A stretch of 5,858 bases of DNA, taken from IMG/VR virus record IMGVR_UViG_3300028992_000037. One strand, written 5' to 3'. The number at the start of each line of letters is the position of its first letter. Position 1 is the stretch's first letter. Shown here piece by piece: positions 88 through 5,638 of the stretch. Origin of the DNA: a virus. Lineage: Duplodnaviria > Heunggongvirae > Uroviricota > Caudoviricetes. Position numbers and translations under genes: made by a program. The notes beneath the pieces are model-generated. The model made no database searches and had not been told where the DNA came from. It saw only the letters and a list, made by a program, of their open reading frames with translations.

Positions 88-729
88 TCAGCGACCAATC
101 ACCACAACCTGACCACCATCACCTTCATCTGCTGTGCTGATCTCCTGAGATACCACCCGCGACCCCACACGCATTTCACCGTACAGAACGGGCAGGACAT
201 TGCCCTGGGCAACCATATTATCCAGTGAAGAAAAATAGGTGTTCTGTTTGCCGTTATCCGTTGTCTGTGTGCGGGGGGTTTTGGGTTTAGGGGCCAGCAT
301 CTGTGCAACACCGCCAAGCGTCATACTGGCACCGAGAGAAAACAGCAGATTACTCGCCATAATTCCTACCCCCGGCATCCATATAGCAACCGCCATAACA
401 GCCGCCCCCAGCACAGCCTGAAACACACCGCCACTTTTGGCTCCCGCCAGACGCGGCACGATATGGATCACAGCACCATTTGCCAGCGGTTCATTAAGAC
501 GGGCTGATAATTCCGTTTCACCTGTATCACGCCCGGCAATGCGTACCTGATACCAGCCGTCGCTCAGCTTCTGACGAAACGCCGGGATCTGCATGGCCAG
601 CGCCCGGATGGCTTCGGCCCCCGTTTTCACACGCAGATCGATGCGGCGGCCAAATCGTTGTAAATCCCCGTAAAGGCAGATGCGCGCCATGCCCGGTGAC
701 GCCAGAGGGAGTGTGTGCGTCGCTGCCAT
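88..729 (-). CDS. I: Tail assembly protein I (lambda gpI-like)
   Basis: 213-aa ORF starting MAATHTLPLASPGMARICLYGDLQRFGRRIDLRVKTG, which matches the lambda gpI N-terminus as I recall it. It overlaps the 3' end of K by 103 nt in another frame, the same overlap I recall for lambda K/I. It sits between K and J, has high GC, and includes a hydrophobic glycine/alanine-rich central segment. Confidence 0.9.
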   Translation of the reverse strand: MAATHTLPLASPGMARICLYGDLQRFGRRIDLRVKTGAEAIRALAMQIPAFRQKLSDGWYQVRIAGRDTGETELSARLNEPLANGAVIHIVPRLAGAKSGGVFQAVLGAAVMAVAIWMPGVGIMASNLLFSLGASMTLGGVAQMLAPKPKTPRTQTTDNGKQNTYFSSLDNMVAQGNVLPVLYGEMRVGSRVVSQEISTADEGDGGQVVVIGR

Positions 730-1370
730 TTGTCGGTATACCTCTCTCGTTTGCTCAGTTGTTCAGGAATATGGTGCAGCAGCTCGCCGTCACCACAGTA
801 AATGGCGGCATGATTCGGCACCGATGAACCAAAGCAGCACAGCAGCACATCGCCCGGTTGTGCTGATGACAACGGCACCTGATACAGCCCTGTGGCCTCC
901 AGATTATCCAGATAGAGATTCTGACCGTGACGCCACCAGTCATCCCCGCGATGAAAATCCGGCATCTCAATTCCCGCCAGATGGTAAGCGTCCCGGAACA
1001 GCGTGTAACAGTCCGTCACCCCGTGCTCAAAGCGCCGCCCGGTGAGATGCGGCACACAGCGGAATTTATGAATCGCCCCCCGGCAGACCAGCCACCACGG
1101 CAAATCACTCTGCACCTGCAGCCGCCGGTCGGCCTCACTCAGCCAGGGCAGACCACCGGGGTGGCTGTGGACCAGCGCCACAATCTCTCCCTGCATTTCT
1201 GCACTCAGCCAGTCCTCCGGCGACATCCGGAAATACGCCTCCGGCTCACCGGAGATATTCACGCAGGGAAAATATCTTTCCTCCTCCGGCGTTCTCACCA
1301 CGAAGCCGCACGACTCCGCTGGCGCACATCGCCGGGCGTGCGCCAGAATCGCTGATTCTGTCTCTGTCAT
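627..1370 (-). CDS. K: Tail tip assembly protein K (lambda gpK-like; N-terminal MPN/JAMM-type domain plus C-terminal NlpC/P60-type domain)
   Basis: 247-aa ORF beginning 5 nt after the L stop. It contains an exact JAMM motif, HSHPGGLPWLSEAD (H-x-H-x7-S-x2-D, aa 68-81), with an upstream Glu at aa 19. The C-terminal half has a Cys/His arrangement typical of NlpC/P60 (DCYTLF ... NHAAIY ... LLHHI). An alternative internal start at Met49 (1224..1226) is preceded by GGAGG and would correspond to the classical 199-aa lambda K. Confidence 0.88.
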   Translation of the reverse strand: MTETESAILAHARRCAPAESCGFVVRTPEEERYFPCVNISGEPEAYFRMSPEDWLSAEMQGEIVALVHSHPGGLPWLSEADRRLQVQSDLPWWLVCRGAIHKFRCVPHLTGRRFEHGVTDCYTLFRDAYHLAGIEMPDFHRGDDWWRHGQNLYLDNLEATGLYQVPLSSAQPGDVLLCCFGSSVPNHAAIYCGDGELLHHIPEQLSKRERYTDKWQRRTHSLWRHRAWRASAFTGIYNDLAAASICV

Positions 1371-1375
1371 GGGAT

Positions 1376-2074
1376 TTACTGCGAAAGTTTGTTAATGGAA
1401 AGGAAGCTGCCAAAGTTGCCGACATTATTGCGAAACTTACAGCCACTCAGGCATTTGCTGCATTTATCCTTCGTGATATCGGACGTCGGCTGGTCATATT
1501 CATCCGCGACCGCCGGACCGCTATAACCGCACTCATCGCCGCGATAGGTCCAGGTGCAGGTGTTGGCCAGCATGATACGTCCCGGAAAAACAGCGCCATC
1601 CGTTTCCGTCGGCGTGGACAGTACAAAAGAGGCACTGACCGCGCTCAGTTCGCTGCACTGCTCGATGCGCCAGCGGCTGATCACCTCCTGCTCCGGATCG
1701 GCTTCGCTGTTTCCGTTGACGAAGTTCACCGCATCCAGAAAGCGGGCGTAAACCTTACGCCGGACCACCGTTCCGCCGACCAGACTCTGCAGATCTTCCG
1801 CCATCCCGGTGATCATGCCGTGCAGGTTAGAGACCGTCAGTGTCGGACGGGCAGCACTGCCCTTGCCGTTCATCTCAAATCCACTCCCCTGAATGGGATA
1901 GGCCTGATACTGCCGACTCTGCCAGGTGACAGACTCACCTTTTTCGTTCTGCTCATTACAGAAAAAGTAGCGATCCCCGCCTACCTCGGTCAGGTCGATT
2001 TCCCAGAGCACCACGCTGGCCGACTGCTCCGCACGAATGCATTCATTCAGCGTTTCCTGTTGTATGTCCTGCAT
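1376..2074 (-). CDS. L: Minor tail protein L (lambda gpL-like, tail tip complex; cysteine cluster consistent with an Fe-S site)
   Basis: 232-aa ORF starting [12 protein letters not shown]...SASVVLWEIDLTEVGG, closely matching lambda gpL as I recall it, and the same length as lambda L (699 nt). Its ATG overlaps the M stop as ATGA (2072..2076). There is a C-terminal cysteine cluster (C173, C182, C205, C208, C212). Confidence 0.92.
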   Translation of the reverse strand: MQDIQQETLNECIRAEQSASVVLWEIDLTEVGGDRYFFCNEQNEKGESVTWQSRQYQAYPIQGSGFEMNGKGSAARPTLTVSNLHGMITGMAEDLQSLVGGTVVRRKVYARFLDAVNFVNGNSEADPEQEVISRWRIEQCSELSAVSASFVLSTPTETDGAVFPGRIMLANTCTWTYRGDECGYSGPAVADEYDQPTSDITKDKCSKCLSGCKFRNNVGNFGSFLSINKLSQ

Positions 2075-2412
2075 CAGATCACCACTTCGTCAAACTGACA
2101 CGAAAAATCGGTATAGGTGATATGTTCTGTCGCTGACCACGTTCGACACACCACTCTGATTTTTCTGTTAATACCCGGCGGGCGCCAAAAAAAAGATTTA
2201 TAGCCTTCATGCCGGGCTAAAAATTTTTCAAATGAATCACGTTCATTCGCCTCAACTTTGAAATCACAGGTGAAAACGCGCAGAGAATGATTAAGTCCAT
2301 TTGGACTTCGTTGCTCATAACCATCGCCAAATCTTACAGTTTTTATCGATGGTTTATTTTCTGTTTTCATTCCATCCTCTGGTAACCAGTGAAATTCTTC
2401 CGTATTAGCCAC
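2074..2412 (-). CDS. M: Minor tail protein M (gpM family, divergent from lambda gpM)
   Basis: 112-aa ORF with a GTG start that overlaps the H stop by 8 nt. The N-terminus ([28 protein letters not shown]) aligns with the lambda gpM N-terminal region (F-R-W...GM...VRFGDGY) as I recall it, and the C-terminus ends ...FDEVVI versus lambda ...FEQVVN. An alternative ATG start at 2368..2370 is preceded by GAGGA. GC content is markedly lower than in L, K and I. Confidence 0.8.
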
Positions 2413-5400
2413 TTAACATTCCCCCATCACGTCGCATATTTAACAGATTGCCCTGCACCCGCTGATCAACCATCCCCATAAGTGCTTTTATTGCCTGAGG
2501 GCCAATCTCTCCATTCTGGCCGTCATTTTGAATAGTGATTTGGTATACAGGGGCATAGGTAATATCTCCGCCTCCATTACCACTTTTACTATTAATAGCT
2601 CTGACACCAAGAGAACCATCGGAAGTTCGTGTTAATGGCATAATGGCTTCCGGACCAGCTTCACCAAAAACACCAGCCCCTCTTGCAAAAGCAAAAAATT
2701 GCGGGGAATCATAAATACCGTTCGAATACGTGTTCAATGACGGAGACTCATAAACACCGCCCTTTGCATTCGGAATAAATTTACTAATAGCACTCCCGAT
2801 AGTTCCTAAAATCCCCCCAGAAGAACTGTTACTAATGCTGTCGAAAATCCCAGTAATTGAAGCCTTTAATGCTATTCGACTAAGATCCGAAATCACGGAA
2901 GTAGCGAAAGAACGAAAATTTGCCTTGCCTGTCGTGACAAAATCACCCAACGCATCGGTCATTCCATCAAACATCTGAGTCGTGGTTGATTTTATCTGCT
3001 CACTGATATCCTTAGTGTCATCCAGCCAGTTATTGAATCCCTGGGAGGCACCACTAACCCAGTCTCCTGCCTGAATATCGAGCTGCTCGTTTTTCTGTCT
3101 GACAATTTCTTTTTCTCGTTCCAGAGCATCATTCAGAGCCTGCATTTTCTCCTGAAAAACATGATTTGACATCCCACGGGATTTATCTGCATAGTCACGT
3201 TCAAGTTGCAGACGCTGATTGTTATATTCACGTTCAATCCGCAGTAATTCCTGCTGGCGTTGCTGATTTTTATCGCCAACCCCATAACCAGCAATCTGAA
3301 TATCATACCCCTGTTGACGATTATCAATCGAAGCCTGCAATGAATCACGCCATGCAGCTATTTCGGCGGATTCCTTGATTAGCCTGTTATTTTTTTCAAT
3401 CGCAACATTTTTCTCCATCAACGCGGTTATTTCTTCCCGGTGTAAGAGAAGCGATTTCTGATCCTGGGTTAATTTCGATGACGGTCGTGACTCCAGGTCG
3501 GCAATCTGCTGACGCCACTTAACCAGTTCCTGTTCAGAGGAACTTAATTTAACGGTTAATTCAGTTTGTGAACTTAGTAACGCATTCTGTTGATTCAGAT
3601 GATCAATCATTCGTTGGGCAGCATCATCCGAATAACCTTTCGCCTTTGGTTGCTTTGGATCTTTATAACGCTCATTTATTTGAGCGATAAAATTATTATA
3701 TTCTTCCTTTGAATACTGACTCTTTAGCTTTTCCAGTTTTGCAAGTTCACTAGCTCTCTGCTGCTCCCGGGTCTGATATTGTTTTGAAAAGGCATCTGCT
3801 CTCTGTCTGAGTTCAATTCCTTCCTGTTGTCGCTTGTTGTAATCGTTTATTGATGAATTTAGGACGTCCTGAGCAATTTTTTCTGCTTGAAGTACGCCCA
3901 ATTGCTGCTTTAATCGTGCCAGCCTTTTATTTTGAGCTCCGCCATCTCCAATGCCACCTAACCCGAAAACTCCGGGTCGGGTATTTTTTTCTATTTCATC
4001 AATTTGACGGAGAACATCTGAGATTTTTTGATCAAGGGAGGCCTCACGGCCAATATCCAGCATGGAATCCCATGCCCATTTTGCGGAGTCTGCGACAGCT
4101 TTCCATGCAGTCTCAAGATAACCAAGATTTTCTTTAATCTGGTTGGTGCGCTGGATCATTGAGGATGAGTATGCTTCTGTCGCAATGCGGGCGGCCTCCT
4201 GCTGGTTCCCTTCATCCTGTAGCGCCTTAATCTGGTTATAAGTCGCAATTGTCAGAAAATGGTACTGATCATTAAGTTTTGATATGGCACTGACAGGATC
4301 CTTTGCAATTTCATTGAAGTCATTAACCAGTTGTTCGGTTGATATTCCTGTTACTTCGCTCGTTTTTACTATCGCTGTCGTCACTTGCTCCAGCGAACTG
4401 CTCGCTACCTTTCCCGAACGCACAAGCTGGTTTAATACTGCCGCCGCAGCGCCAGTTGTCGAATCAGCCGCATTCCCGGCACGTTGAGCTATATCGGCCA
4501 ATTGCCCGCTGGTTGTCCCCAACTGATTTCCGGTAAGAATAAGAGATTTATTAAATTCGTCCTGCTCCTGAGAGCCTTTATAGTAAGCCAGCCCTAAGAC
4601 GCCAACGGCTGCTGCGGCCAGGGTAAAAGGATTAATTAATCCCAGCACATAAGAACCAACACCTTTGATCGCCGGGCCAATCCCACCGAACATATCTTTT
4701 AGCTGGCCGCCCTGCTGCATTAACACCATAAAAGGCGACTGACCAGTGGACAACCCAACAACAATATCCGTCATTTGTGCAGGCAACATGCGCATAGCAA
4801 AAGCCGTTTGTTTTGCCGACATTCCGGTTTTGCTTAATTGAGATTGAGTAACCTCAAGCTCACTCCGCATAGCACGAAGTTTTCCAGAAAGTTCCTCATA
4901 CATTTCAGGAGAGAGCATCCCCTTAGCTTTTGCTTCATTGAGCTGTTTCTGTTGTTCTACCAGACGATTAAAAGCAGTTCCGACAGGGTCAAGTTGAGCA
5001 ATCAGACGTTGCAAAGCAGCAACCTGTTCATCATGCGCTTTTGCTGCTTCTCGCTCTGCCTGAGCCTCTCCGGTAAGCTCTCGCCGTGTTTCCTGTATTT
5101 TTCGGCTATAATTCTCAAACTGAGAACCATTTATTTTCCCGGATGCAAACGCAGCATTAAGTTCATCCTGCTGTTGTTCAAGATTTCTTAGCGCCGCAAC
5201 CAGAGGGTCGATCTTGTCCAGCATTCTTTGAAAGGCCTGAGCCTGCGATTCCTGCTGGGCGGCAGCAAGTTTTCCGGCCTTCTCGGCTTCTCTCTGCGCT
5301 TGCGCAACCCCGCTCAATTCCTCTGTGGTTTCATTAAGTTTACGGACAAGAAATTCATATTCTTCTTTATCAATAAGTCCTTTATCGAAAAATTTCTTTA

Positions 5401-5638
5401 ATTCAGAATAGCGTCGACCGACAGTATCAATTGCGGCACCAACTGGATCAATAGCTGCTTTTAATTTTGCGAGCGCGTTCTTCTCATCTTCTGTTGCCTT
5501 AGTCACTTTCCCTGCGCTATTTGCAGCAGTTTCCCCGGCCTGCGTCATTTTGACTAATGAGGAGGTCAGATTGTCAGCATTATTTTTTGCTCCAGTGCTA
5601 TCAATAATTATTGCGAGACGCGAGGTTTGCTCTGCCAT
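2405..5638 (-). CDS. H: Tail tape measure protein (lambda gpH family, extended to 1077 aa)
   Basis: Single 3234-nt ORF with a GGAG Shine-Dalgarno at 5648..5651, 9 nt before the ATG. It has three N-terminal repeats of about 48 aa (aa 63-110, 143-190, 216-263). A conserved hydrophobic block ([38 protein letters not shown]...[15 protein letters not shown], aa ~283-354) matches the corresponding lambda gpH segment as I recall it. A long central region is Q/E/K/R-rich and coiled-coil-like. The C-terminus (...[16 protein letters not shown]...[10 protein letters not shown]) resembles the lambda gpH C-terminus as I recall it. It sits immediately upstream of M-L-K-I-J. Confidence 0.92.

What the first reader, a model, noticed from the sequence alone, without database searches (positions are those of the whole stretch)
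627..1370. K reading frame supports the long two-domain form, with a complete JAMM motif that depends on the upstream start
The JAMM signature HSHPGGLPWLSEAD (1128..1169) and its upstream Glu19 (1314..1316) sit in the first 81 residues. The classical lambda K start, as I recall it, corresponds to Met49 here (1224..1226), which would remove Glu19 and truncate the MPN fold. The ORF stays open 48 codons upstream of Met49 and begins 5 nt after the L stop with no strong Shine-Dalgarno, suggesting translation coupled to L termination. A GGAGG precedes Met49, so two isoforms are conceivable. The 3' end overlaps I by 103 nt out of frame.
Basis: partly seen in the sequence, partly recalled or inferred. 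Interest (0 to 1): 0.35.

Follow-up and report, generated by a model that had tools for sequence, protein, structure and literature searches.

The report
Full-length lambda-type tail protein K
The tail-assembly gene K in this lambda-like phage really encodes the long 247-residue two-protease protein, which is already the standard database form; the shorter "classical" lambda K exists only because the 1982 lambda reference sequence lacks one G.

Summary
K (627..1370, minus strand) is a 247-aa ORF that starts 5 nt after the L stop. It carries a complete JAMM motif: Glu19 plus H68-x-H70-x7-S78-x2-D81. An NlpC/P60 domain follows it.

The long form is the real gene.
- The 48 N-terminal residues alone match Prok-JAB, and the 199-aa form falls below Pfam's cut-off.
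- Codons 2-48 are under purifying selection (omega 0.38, against 1.5-1.65 in the other two frames).
- Glu19, Cys21, Gly22 and Asn38 are among the most conserved residues in 96 homologues.
- Met49 is replaced by Ile or Leu in some relatives.
- A confident AlphaFold model puts helix 1 and two core strands of the MPN fold in the first 48 residues.

In the lambda reference (J02459/NC_001416) the upstream frame is not open, because a G after base 14266 is missing. Four resequenced lambda derivatives, ten lambda contaminant contigs in unrelated assemblies and the MutaMouse lambda-gt10 transgene all carry that G. The classical 199-aa start is therefore a reference artefact.

None of this is new biology. 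The JAB+NlpC/P60 architecture was published in 2006. NCBI routinely calls the 247-aa form. [quoted passage not shown] A conserved second isoform from Met49 is unlikely.

The parts
627..1370 (-). Gene K, full-length coding sequence (247 aa plus TGA stop): tail tip assembly protein with an N-terminal JAB/MPN+ domain and a C-terminal NlpC/P60 domain
   Evidence: ORF list. Pfam Prok-JAB 52.8 bits and NLPC_P60 47.7 bits. phrog_30 E 1.9e-162. 236/247 identical to resequenced lambda K. Exact sequence is WP_447319991.1, 'C40 family peptidase'.
1371..1378 (-). L stop codon TAA (1378..1376) plus the 5-nt spacer ATCCC before the K start; no Shine-Dalgarno sequence, so this is a probable termination-reinitiation junction
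   Evidence: Sequence. Anti-SD duplex energy +0.7 kcal/mol. The same 4-5 nt junction occurs in nearly all lambda-like loci.
1227..1370 (-). Codons 1-48: helix 1 (residues 3-15) and strands 21-26 and 31-36 of the MPN fold, including Glu19. This is the part lost in the classical 199-aa annotation
   Evidence: The 48 aa alone give Prok-JAB 25.0 bits at profile positions 3-41. Omega 0.38, p = 8e-26, against 1.65 and 1.48 in the other frames. AF2 secondary structure.
1314..1316 (-). Glu19, the upstream glutamate of the JAMM motif (E-x(n)-H-x-H-x7-S-x2-D)
   Evidence: GAG or GAA in all 98 unique coding sequences. Nearly invariant in 96 homologues down to 31% identity.
1128..1169 (-). JAMM zinc-binding signature H68-S-H70-x7-S78-x2-D81
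   Evidence: Sequence. H68, H70 and D81 are invariant; S69 and S78 are nearly invariant.
1224..1226 (-). Met49, homologous to the classical lambda K start (lambda 14276); here an internal codon
   Evidence: Alignment with lambda. Codon 49 is ATG in 89, CTG in 3, ATA in 3 and ATC in 3 of 98 unique coding sequences. It is Ile in many homologues.
1238..1242 (-). GGAGG inside Pro43-Glu44-Ala45 codons, 11 nt upstream of the Met49 ATG: an SD-like element that gene callers pick up
   Evidence: Sequence. Duplex energy -9.5 kcal/mol. About 3% of window positions have an equally strong element upstream.
1236..1236 (-). The G that is absent from the lambda reference J02459/NC_001416 (it would sit between lambda bases 14266 and 14267). 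Its absence shifts the frame and created the 199-aa annotation
   Evidence: Alignments. MutaMouse lambda-gt10 variant '14266 C>CG'. 47 loci carry the lambda-type 39-mer with the G; of the 133 loci fetched by then, only the two reference records lacked it.
699..1040 (-). NlpC/P60 (C40) papain-like peptidase domain, residues 111-224. Conserved Cys121 (1010..1008), His187 (812..810) and His199 (776..774) sit where a catalytic triad is expected
   Evidence: Pfam PF00877 47.7 bits over profile 1-105/105. D120 is invariant; C121, H187 and H199 are nearly invariant. Foldseek hits to MepS/Spr, Acd33800 and LytE.
88..729 (-). Gene I (maximal ORF 213 aa): ubiquitin-like N-domain, Gly-rich linker and C-domain. 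It is the reported substrate of K. The conserved protein begins at Met14 (690..688)
   Evidence: Pfam Lambda_tail_I 84.6 bits, residues 14-97 on profile 2-83. I-frame omega is 1.74 for codons 2-13 and 0.18 for codons 14-34. Conference report of gpK cleaving gpI.

Best explanation
K is translated from the ATG at 1370, 5 nt after the L stop, most probably by ribosomes that have just terminated on L. The product is one 247-residue (28.3 kDa) protein with two peptidase domains.
- Residues 1 to about 105 form a complete JAMM/MPN+ metalloisopeptidase domain: Glu19, His68, His70, Ser78 and Asp81.
- Residues 111-224 form an NlpC/P60 cysteine peptidase domain with conserved Cys121, His187 and His199.

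By homology with lambda gpK, it acts as a non-virion assembly factor. Its JAMM domain cuts the ubiquitin-like N-terminal domain off the next gene's product, gpI, during tail-tip assembly.

The shorter 199-aa 'classical' K beginning at Met49 is not a biological form. It arose because the lambda reference sequence lacks one G after base 14266. That places the first 47 codons in another frame and leaves Met49, with a fortuitous GGAGG upstream, as the first in-frame start.

Basis of each step:
- Shown here: the reading frame, selection, domain completeness and the reference discrepancy.
- Inferred: translational coupling and catalytic activity.
- Taken from a meeting report: cleavage of gpI.
For: Domain completeness
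- Pfam gives the 247-aa form Prok-JAB 52.8 bits over profile 4-103/114. The 199-aa form gets 22.7 bits, below the gathering cut-off of 25, and covers only profile 64-103. The 48 aa alone score 25.0 bits on profile 3-41.
- AF2 gives pLDDT 96.9 and pTM 0.91. Helix 3-15 and strands 21-26 and 31-36 fall in the first 48 residues.
- Foldseek aligns the N-domain with PfJAMM1 (5ld9, 5lda with SAMP2; TM 0.66, rmsd 2.4-2.6 A), 2kks, AMSH, Rpn11 and CSN5. It aligns the C-domain with MepS/Spr and other NlpC/P60 enzymes.

Conservation and selection
- Among 18 homologues at 67-96% identity, residues I8, L9, H11, A12, A16, P17, E19, S20, C21, G22, V24, Y33, P35, N38, S40, E42, Y46 and F47 are invariant.
- In 96 homologues down to 31% identity, G22 and N38 are invariant and P17, E19, C21 and F47 nearly so.
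- Parsimony dN/dS on 98 unique coding sequences gives 0.38 for codons 2-48 (p = 8e-26), against 1.65 and 1.48 in the other frames. Third-position changes dominate: 264, against 129 and 110.
- Distant full-length homologues of 230-260 aa align from query residues about 4-10.

Database usage
- The 247-aa call dominates, in clusters of 2,276 to 12,883 members named 'C40 family peptidase' with PF14464+PF00877.

Reference artefact
- Lambda K is annotated 14276..14875, and its upstream ATG at 14133 is out of frame.
- Four resequenced lambda derivatives carry an extra G.
- 14 loci have a K coding sequence identical to that resequenced lambda K: the four derivatives plus ten contigs in assemblies of unrelated organisms. 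Low coverage and contig length mark several of these as lambda contaminants.
- The MutaMouse transgene lists 14266 C>CG.

Start context and function
- No SD precedes ATG1. The 4-5 nt stop-start gap is conserved in lambda-like loci, while distant homologues have SD-like motifs at the homologous start.
- A 2025 plenary, as summarised in PMC12908700, reports that gpK cleaves the Ub-like domain of gpI. Iyer et al. 2006 predicted this.
Against: - There is no direct protein evidence here (N-terminal sequence, mass or ribosome profiling) for this phage or for lambda.
- Met49 has a strong SD-like GGAGG (-9.5 kcal/mol). It is conserved together with ATG in 84 of 98 unique coding sequences, most of them lambda-like, so some internal initiation cannot be excluded.
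- Two further GenBank records lack the G. OR974322 has coordinates identical to the reference, so it looks reference-guided. OR474059 is flagged UNVERIFIED. They may not be independent.
- Omega for codons 2-48 (0.38) is somewhat higher than for the rest of K (0.22-0.24).
- The parsimony counts ignore recombination among mosaic prophages.
- The cleavage of gpI is known to me only from a meeting summary, not from a primary paper.
Confidence: 0.9

Rival explanations
1. Two isoforms: besides the 247-aa protein, ribosomes initiate internally at Met49 using the GGAGG. This would give a 199-aa product that is essentially an NlpC/P60 domain with a non-folding JAB remnant and has a role of its own.
For: - GGAGG lies 11 nt upstream of ATG49 with a duplex energy of -9.5 kcal/mol.
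- 84 of 98 unique coding sequences, most of them lambda-like, keep both ATG49 and GGAGG.
- Some gene callers and curators choose this start, with an annotated RBS.
- Iyer et al. note phages whose K homologue has only an NlpC/P60 domain.
Against: - Codon 49 is CTG, ATA or ATC in 9 of 98 unique coding sequences, and is Ile in many Salmonella, Citrobacter and Edwardsiella homologues.
- GGAGG is dictated by conserved Pro-Glu codons, and CCGGAGG recurs three times nearby.
- About 3% of positions in the window have an equally strong SD-like site upstream.
- The 11-nt spacing is longer than optimal (established knowledge of E. coli initiation).
- The 199-aa product would carry about 57 residues of an incomplete fold.
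Confidence: 0.07
2. The classical annotation is right: K is the 199-aa protein from Met49, and the upstream 48 codons are untranslated or a relic.
For: The GenBank and RefSeq lambda records and UniProt TIPK_LAMBD list 199 aa. Met49 has an SD-like element.
Against: - There is purifying selection in the K frame only.
- The most conserved family residues lie upstream of Met49.
- Prok-JAB falls below threshold without the upstream codons.
- Core fold elements would be removed.
- Met49 is not conserved.
- The annotation traces to a one-base gap in the reference.
- A 149-nt untranslated gap would be out of keeping with the other junctions of this operon, where genes overlap or abut.
Confidence: 0.02
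3. The missing G is real in the strain sequenced in 1982, and lambda makes full-length K by a programmed or compensating ribosomal frameshift near 14266.
For: Four database records lack the G. Frameshifting is used elsewhere in the lambda tail operon (G/GT; established knowledge).
Against: - Every independently sequenced lambda derivative examined has the G: PV340536, LC730321, KT232076, the imm21 hybrid, ten contigs identical to lambda in unrelated assemblies, and lambda-gt10 in MutaMouse. DE3 and other lambda-like records also span 322 nt for the 321-nt query, consistent with one extra base.
- The two extra no-G records look reference-derived.
- This rival does not apply to the window, whose frame is intact.
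Confidence: 0.01

Closest known systems
Bacteriophage lambda gpK (tail tip assembly protein K), 247-aa form as in resequenced lambda (PV340536, XSB40720.1)
   Same: 236/247 residues are identical. The gene order is H-M-L-K-I-J, the 5-nt L-K junction is the same, and the JAMM and NlpC/P60 residues are the same.
   Different: There are 11 substitutions. The neighbouring tape-measure gene here is a different, longer type (1077 aa) from lambda H, stated as 853 aa in PMC12617516. The GenBank, RefSeq and UniProt lambda entries still show the 199-aa truncation.
TAPK family of Iyer, Burroughs and Aravind 2006 (JAB + NlpC/P60, next to ubiquitin-like TAPI)
   Same: The two-domain architecture and the neighbourhood with a Ub-like I protein and J are exactly as described. 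The predicted JAB-mediated release of the Ub-like domain of I is also the same.
   Different: Nothing substantive. This window is an ordinary member.
Archaeal and bacterial stand-alone JAMM/MPN+ enzymes (PfJAMM1 5ld9/5lda, HvJAMM1 desampylase, DSY2949 2kks)
   Same: They share a compact MPN fold of about 105-130 residues and the E...HxHx7SxxD motif, and they act on beta-grasp ubiquitin-like proteins.
   Different: K fuses the domain to an NlpC/P60 peptidase. Its reported substrate is a linear fusion within a phage structural protein rather than a conjugate. Sequence identity is only 21-26%. The NCBIfam desampylase score is far below cut-off: 29.6 against 130 bits.
NlpC/P60 (C40) peptidases such as E. 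coli MepS/Spr
   Same: They share the papain-like fold and the conserved Cys-His-His positions.
   Different: No peptidoglycan-binding domain or signal peptide turned up in the family searches. The substrate of this domain in K is unknown.

Membership tests
JAMM/MPN+ metalloisopeptidases (Pfam PF14464 Prok-JAB) | Profile score above the curated gathering threshold | tested here: met
   52.8 bits against a cut-off of 25 for the 247-aa form. The 199-aa form fails at 22.7 bits.
JAMM/MPN+ metalloisopeptidases (Pfam PF14464 Prok-JAB) | Complete E-x(n)-H-S/T-H-x7-S-x2-D motif | tested here: met
   E19, H68-S69-H70, S78 and D81 are present. All are invariant or nearly invariant in 96 homologues. The motif definition is from PMC300881.
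JAMM/MPN+ metalloisopeptidases (Pfam PF14464 Prok-JAB) | MPN fold | tested here: met
   The AF2 model has pLDDT 96.9. Foldseek to PfJAMM1 gives TM 0.66-0.68 and rmsd 2.4-2.6 A over 106-109 columns; 2kks, AMSH, Rpn11 and CSN5 also match. This is a predicted, not a solved, structure.
JAMM/MPN+ metalloisopeptidases (Pfam PF14464 Prok-JAB) | Zinc binding and (iso)peptidase activity on a ubiquitin-like substrate | not testable with these tools
   The only evidence is a meeting summary that lambda gpK cleaves the Ub-like domain of gpI.
NlpC/P60 (C40) peptidases (Pfam PF00877) | Profile score above threshold over the full profile | tested here: met
   47.7 bits against a cut-off of 23, profile 1-105/105, residues 111-224.
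NlpC/P60 (C40) peptidases (Pfam PF00877) | Catalytic Cys and His residues conserved | tested here: met
   C121, H187 and H199 are nearly invariant and D120 is invariant. Assigning them as the catalytic triad rests on general knowledge of the family.
Lambda gpK / TAPK tail-tip assembly proteins | Position between L and the ubiquitin-like I gene in a lambda-type tail operon | tested here: met
   Pfam assigns M (Phage_min_tail), L (Phage_tail_L) and I (Lambda_tail_I) on either side. Annotations of the best-matching phages agree.
Lambda gpK / TAPK tail-tip assembly proteins | Close sequence similarity to lambda K over the full length | tested here: met
   236/247 identical to the resequenced lambda K. 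phrog_30 E 1.9e-162.
Translationally coupled gene pair (termination-reinitiation) | Start codon within a few nt of the upstream stop and no SD of its own | tested here: met
   The spacer is 5 nt and the anti-SD duplex energy is +0.7 kcal/mol. The junction is conserved in lambda-like loci.
Translationally coupled gene pair (termination-reinitiation) | K translation depends on L translation | not testable with these tools
   This needs reporter fusions with premature stops in L.

The most novel reading that the evidence does not exclude
In the lambda-like clade that keeps both ATG49 and the upstream GGAGG, internal initiation yields a second, 199-aa K isoform: NlpC/P60 without a functional JAMM domain. 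This isoform would have its own role in tail-tip assembly, for example as a non-cleaving binder of gpI or as the form that uses the C40 active site.
Probability: 0.06. Interest if true: 0.35.

Novelty: already known. Interest (0 to 1): 0.15.

Why it matters
The value is mainly in curation.

The lambda records that people still cite (J02459, NC_001416, UniProt TIPK_LAMBD) show a 199-aa K. That form lacks the catalytic glutamate and a third of the JAMM fold. At least one published analysis inherited the truncation: a 2020 HHpred survey analysed K as a 199-residue protein and reported only a peptidase domain, at residues 52-182. The 2003 JAMM paper cites the same 199-aa entry, AAA96551.

Knowing that a single missing G at 14266/14267 causes this has three practical consequences.
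- It explains the inconsistent K annotations among lambda records: 199, 211 and 247 aa.
- It probably explains the spurious 76-aa PHROG family.
- It tells anyone designing K constructs or mutants to use the 247-aa frame.

For this window nothing new follows. It is an ordinary, intact member of a described family whose function is being worked out experimentally.

Tried and rejected
- **Searches for a paper stating that the lambda K start is a sequencing artefact.** None was found in the held library. Only a variant table listing 14266 C>CG turned up. The Casjens and Hendrix 2015 review and the Liu et al. 2013 ribosome-profiling paper could not be opened under the PMC ids I recalled. I therefore cannot say whether they already note it.
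- **Sequence search of the PDB.** There is no solved structure of K or a close relative. The best hit is 2kks, E 2.4e-5, N-domain only.
- **NCBIfam.** No family-level model claims K. Only sub-threshold hits to desampylase and phage_NlpC_fam appeared.
- **Programmed frameshifting in lambda at 14266.** Considered and rejected, because independent lambda sequences carry the G.
- **A second AF2 job on the 199-aa form.** Considered and not run. With the same alignment it would probably still draw the remaining elements confidently and would not test foldability.
- **Pairwise Nei-Gojobori estimates against the window.** These were noisy at more than 95% identity and saturated at less than 60%, so the tree-based parsimony count was used instead.
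Full report
**What the window is**

The window carries part of a lambda-type tail operon on the minus strand:
- a 1077-aa tape-measure gene (2405..5638);
- M (2074..2412);
- L (1376..2074);
- K (627..1370);
- I (88..729).

Pfam assigns Phage_min_tail to M, Phage_tail_L to L and Lambda_tail_I to I. The closest phage records are E. coli and Salmonella lambdoid phages at 96-99% identity over H to I. K is 236/247 identical to lambda K.

**Check of the observation**

Every coordinate in the finding is right.
- The K ATG is at 1370..1368. It lies 5 nt (ATCCC) after the L stop TAA at 1378..1376.
- Glu19 is at 1316..1314 and Met49 at 1226..1224.
- HSHPGGLPWLSEAD, a perfect H-x-H-x7-S-x2-D, lies at 1169..1128.
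- GGAGG is at 1242..1238, 11 nt upstream of the Met49 ATG.
- The longest I ORF overlaps K by 103 nt.

Lambda's annotated K (14276..14875, 199 aa, in both J02459 and NC_001416) begins at the codon homologous to Met49.

**Is the long form real?**

Four independent lines say yes.

1. Profiles
   - The 247-aa protein scores 52.8 bits on Prok-JAB, covering profile 4-103 of 114, and 47.7 bits on NLPC_P60.
   - The 199-aa version drops to 22.7 bits on Prok-JAB. That is below the gathering score of 25, and only profile positions 64-103 are matched.
   - The 48 residues alone score 25.0 bits on profile positions 3-41.
   - The 48 residues alone also hit four PHROG families with E-values of 1e-21 to 1.9e-30.

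2. Conservation
   - In 18 homologues at 67-96% identity, 18 of the first 48 positions are invariant. These include P17, E19, S20, C21 and G22.
   - In 96 homologues down to 31% identity, only seven columns are invariant. Two of them (G22, N38) lie upstream of Met49, and P17, E19, C21 and F47 are nearly invariant.
   - An exhaustive HMMER search found 2,734 representatives. The distant full-length ones (230-260 aa) align from query residues about 4-10.

3. Selection
   - I ran a parsimony count on a tree of 98 unique coding sequences taken from 117 loci.
   - Omega is 0.38 for codons 2-48 (binomial p = 8e-26).
   - It is 0.24 for the rest of the JAB domain and 0.22 for the NlpC/P60 domain.
   - The same nucleotides read in the other two frames give 1.65 and 1.48.
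   - Third codon positions take 264 changes, against 129 and 110.
   - Glu19 is GAG or GAA in all 98.

4. Structure
   - AlphaFold2 with the 96-sequence alignment gives mean pLDDT 96.9 and pTM 0.91.
   - Helix 3-15 and strands 21-26 and 31-36 lie within the first 48 residues.
   - A Met49 start would therefore remove one helix, two core strands and the catalytic glutamate.
   - Foldseek matches the N-domain to 2kks and to PfJAMM1, including its complex with the ubiquitin-like SAMP2 (TM 0.66, rmsd 2.4-2.6 A). It also matches AMSH, Rpn11 and CSN5.
   - Foldseek matches the C-domain to MepS/Spr, Acd33800 and LytE.
   - No solved structure of K exists in the PDB copy.

**Why lambda's K is annotated short**

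It is not.
- In NC_001416 the ORF finder returns only the 199-aa ORF.
- The ATG at 14133, 5 nt after the L stop, opens a different frame that ends after 76 codons.
- Aligned with the window, the reference lacks one G: GGAGGC-TATTTCC against GGAGGCGTATTTCC. The gap falls just after lambda base 14266.

Independent sequences carry the G.
- Four lambda derivatives have it and are otherwise identical to the reference in this stretch: PV340536, LC730321, KT232076 and the imm21 hybrid OM418625.
- Of the 36 phage records at 99% identity or better, four match the reference base for base and so lack the G. Of the others listed in that band, all but one span 322 nt for the 321-nt query, which fits one extra base.
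- Two of those four are the reference itself.
- OR974322 has gene coordinates identical to the reference, so it is probably reference-guided. OR474059 is flagged UNVERIFIED.
- Of the 133 loci fetched at that point, 47 carry the exact lambda 39-mer with the G. Only the two reference loci carry it without.
- Ten contigs in assemblies of unrelated organisms have a K coding sequence 100% identical to the resequenced lambda K. The organisms include Neobacillus, Pseudomonas, Chromatium, Shewanella and Bradyrhizobium. Several of these contigs have about 1x coverage or are about 48.5 kb long, which marks them as lambda DNA contaminants.
- A whole-genome study of the MutaMouse lambda-gt10 transgene lists '14266 C>CG' as a constitutional difference from the reference (PMC6760142).

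The simplest reading is a base missed in the original sequence. The 199-aa K is its consequence.

Annotation of K among resequenced lambdas is accordingly inconsistent:
- 247 aa in PV340536;
- 211 aa from a GTG in KT232076;
- 199 aa with an annotated RBS in OM418625.

**Start signals**

- The K ATG has no Shine-Dalgarno sequence (best anti-SD duplex +0.7 kcal/mol).
- The L start is also weak (-3.7) and sits in TGATG, overlapping the M stop.
- The H/M junction overlaps as well.
- In lambda-like loci the L-stop to K-start gap is 4-5 nt almost without exception. More distant homologues have an SD-like motif or a stop/start overlap at the homologous start.

This fits termination-reinitiation coupling. 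I could not test that directly, so it remains an inference.

**The two-isoform idea**

- Met49 has a good SD-like match (GGAGG, -9.5 kcal/mol), but at 11 nt.
- About 3% of positions in the window have an equally strong match upstream.
- The motif is the by-product of Pro-Glu codons. CCGGAGG occurs three times within about 100 nt.
- Codon 49 is ATG in 89 of 98 unique coding sequences and CTG, ATA or ATC in the other nine.
- Residue 49 is Ile in many Salmonella, Citrobacter and E. coli homologues.

Some internal initiation in the lambda-like clade cannot be excluded. A conserved functional isoform is unlikely.

**What K does**

- Iyer, Burroughs and Aravind (2006, PMC1779556) described 'TAPK' as a JAB plus NlpC/P60 protein encoded next to the ubiquitin-like 'TAPI'. 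They proposed that the JAB domain releases the Ub-like domain of I at its C-terminal glycine.
- Cryo-EM and mass-spectrometry studies did not find gpK in virions (PMC10721106, PMC12617516).
- The report of the 2025 Conference on Bacteriophages summarises a plenary by A. Davidson. [quoted passage not shown]

The window's I keeps the Ub-like domain (Pfam residues 14-97). It is followed by ...AGAKSGG-VFQ..., so a Gly-Gly cleavage site is plausible; that is my inference. The substrate of the NlpC/P60 domain remains unknown.

**Novelty**

None of this is new for the biology.
- The exact window protein is WP_447319991.1, 'C40 family peptidase'.
- The 247-aa lambda K occurs on at least 1,000 contigs under names that include 'metal-dependent protease of the PAD1/JAB1 superfamily'.
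- The 199-aa form survives as AAA96551 and UniProt TIPK_LAMBD.

The useful residue is the curation point about the reference.

**Limits**

- There is no protein-level evidence.
- The parsimony dN/dS ignores recombination.
- The structure is predicted.
- The cleavage of gpI is known to me from a meeting summary only.
- I could not open the Casjens and Hendrix review or the lambda ribosome-profiling paper under the ids I tried, and either may already mention the start.

Noticed in passing
window 627..729 (K/I overlap), I Met14 at 690..688: The first 13 codons of the classical I ORF show no purifying selection in the I frame (omega 1.74; the K frame there gives 0.27). I codons 14-34 are strongly constrained (0.18). 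Distant homologues have CTG or TTG at codon 1 and in-frame stops before Met14. The Pfam Lambda_tail_I profile also begins at Met14. So I probably starts at Met14, giving a 64-nt overlap, even though ATG1 has the better SD (-9.3 against -2.5 kcal/mol). Lambda records disagree on the I start as well: the classical record gives 223 aa, while PV340536 annotates a later GTG start overlapping the K stop (573 nt), which would cut into the Ub-like domain.
   Followed up: partly
L001 (NC_001416) 834..1064 = lambda 14133..14363: In the uncorrected lambda reference, the ATG 5 nt after L opens a 76-codon ORF: 45 genuine K residues followed by out-of-frame sequence. PHROG family phrog_7305 ('unknown function') has a 76-position profile that matches K residues 1-76, so it may be built on this artefact or on similar fragments.
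   Followed up: partly
loci L093-L104 and others (genome contigs): Low-coverage contigs with L and K identical to resequenced lambda sit in genome assemblies of unrelated organisms: Neobacillus, Pseudomonas, Chromatium, Shewanella, Paenibacillus, Bradyrhizobium, Leeuwenhoekiella and Desulfosporosinus. Several are about 48.4-48.5 kb, roughly the length of the lambda genome. They are evidently lambda control DNA left in the assemblies.
   Followed up: partly
window 2405..5638: The tape-measure gene is 1077 aa, much longer than lambda H (853 aa according to PMC12617516). It matches a different set of phages (vB_EcoS-xxx, SPF_0923) from those matched by L-K-I. The window is therefore mosaic, with a junction near M/L around 2077-2096.
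   Followed up: no
window 627..695 (K residues 227-247): The C-terminal 21 residues of K are predicted as a confident helix (230-246). In the K frame they have omega 1.38, because the nucleotides are constrained by the I frame. This is an example of one frame dominating in an overlap.
   Followed up: no
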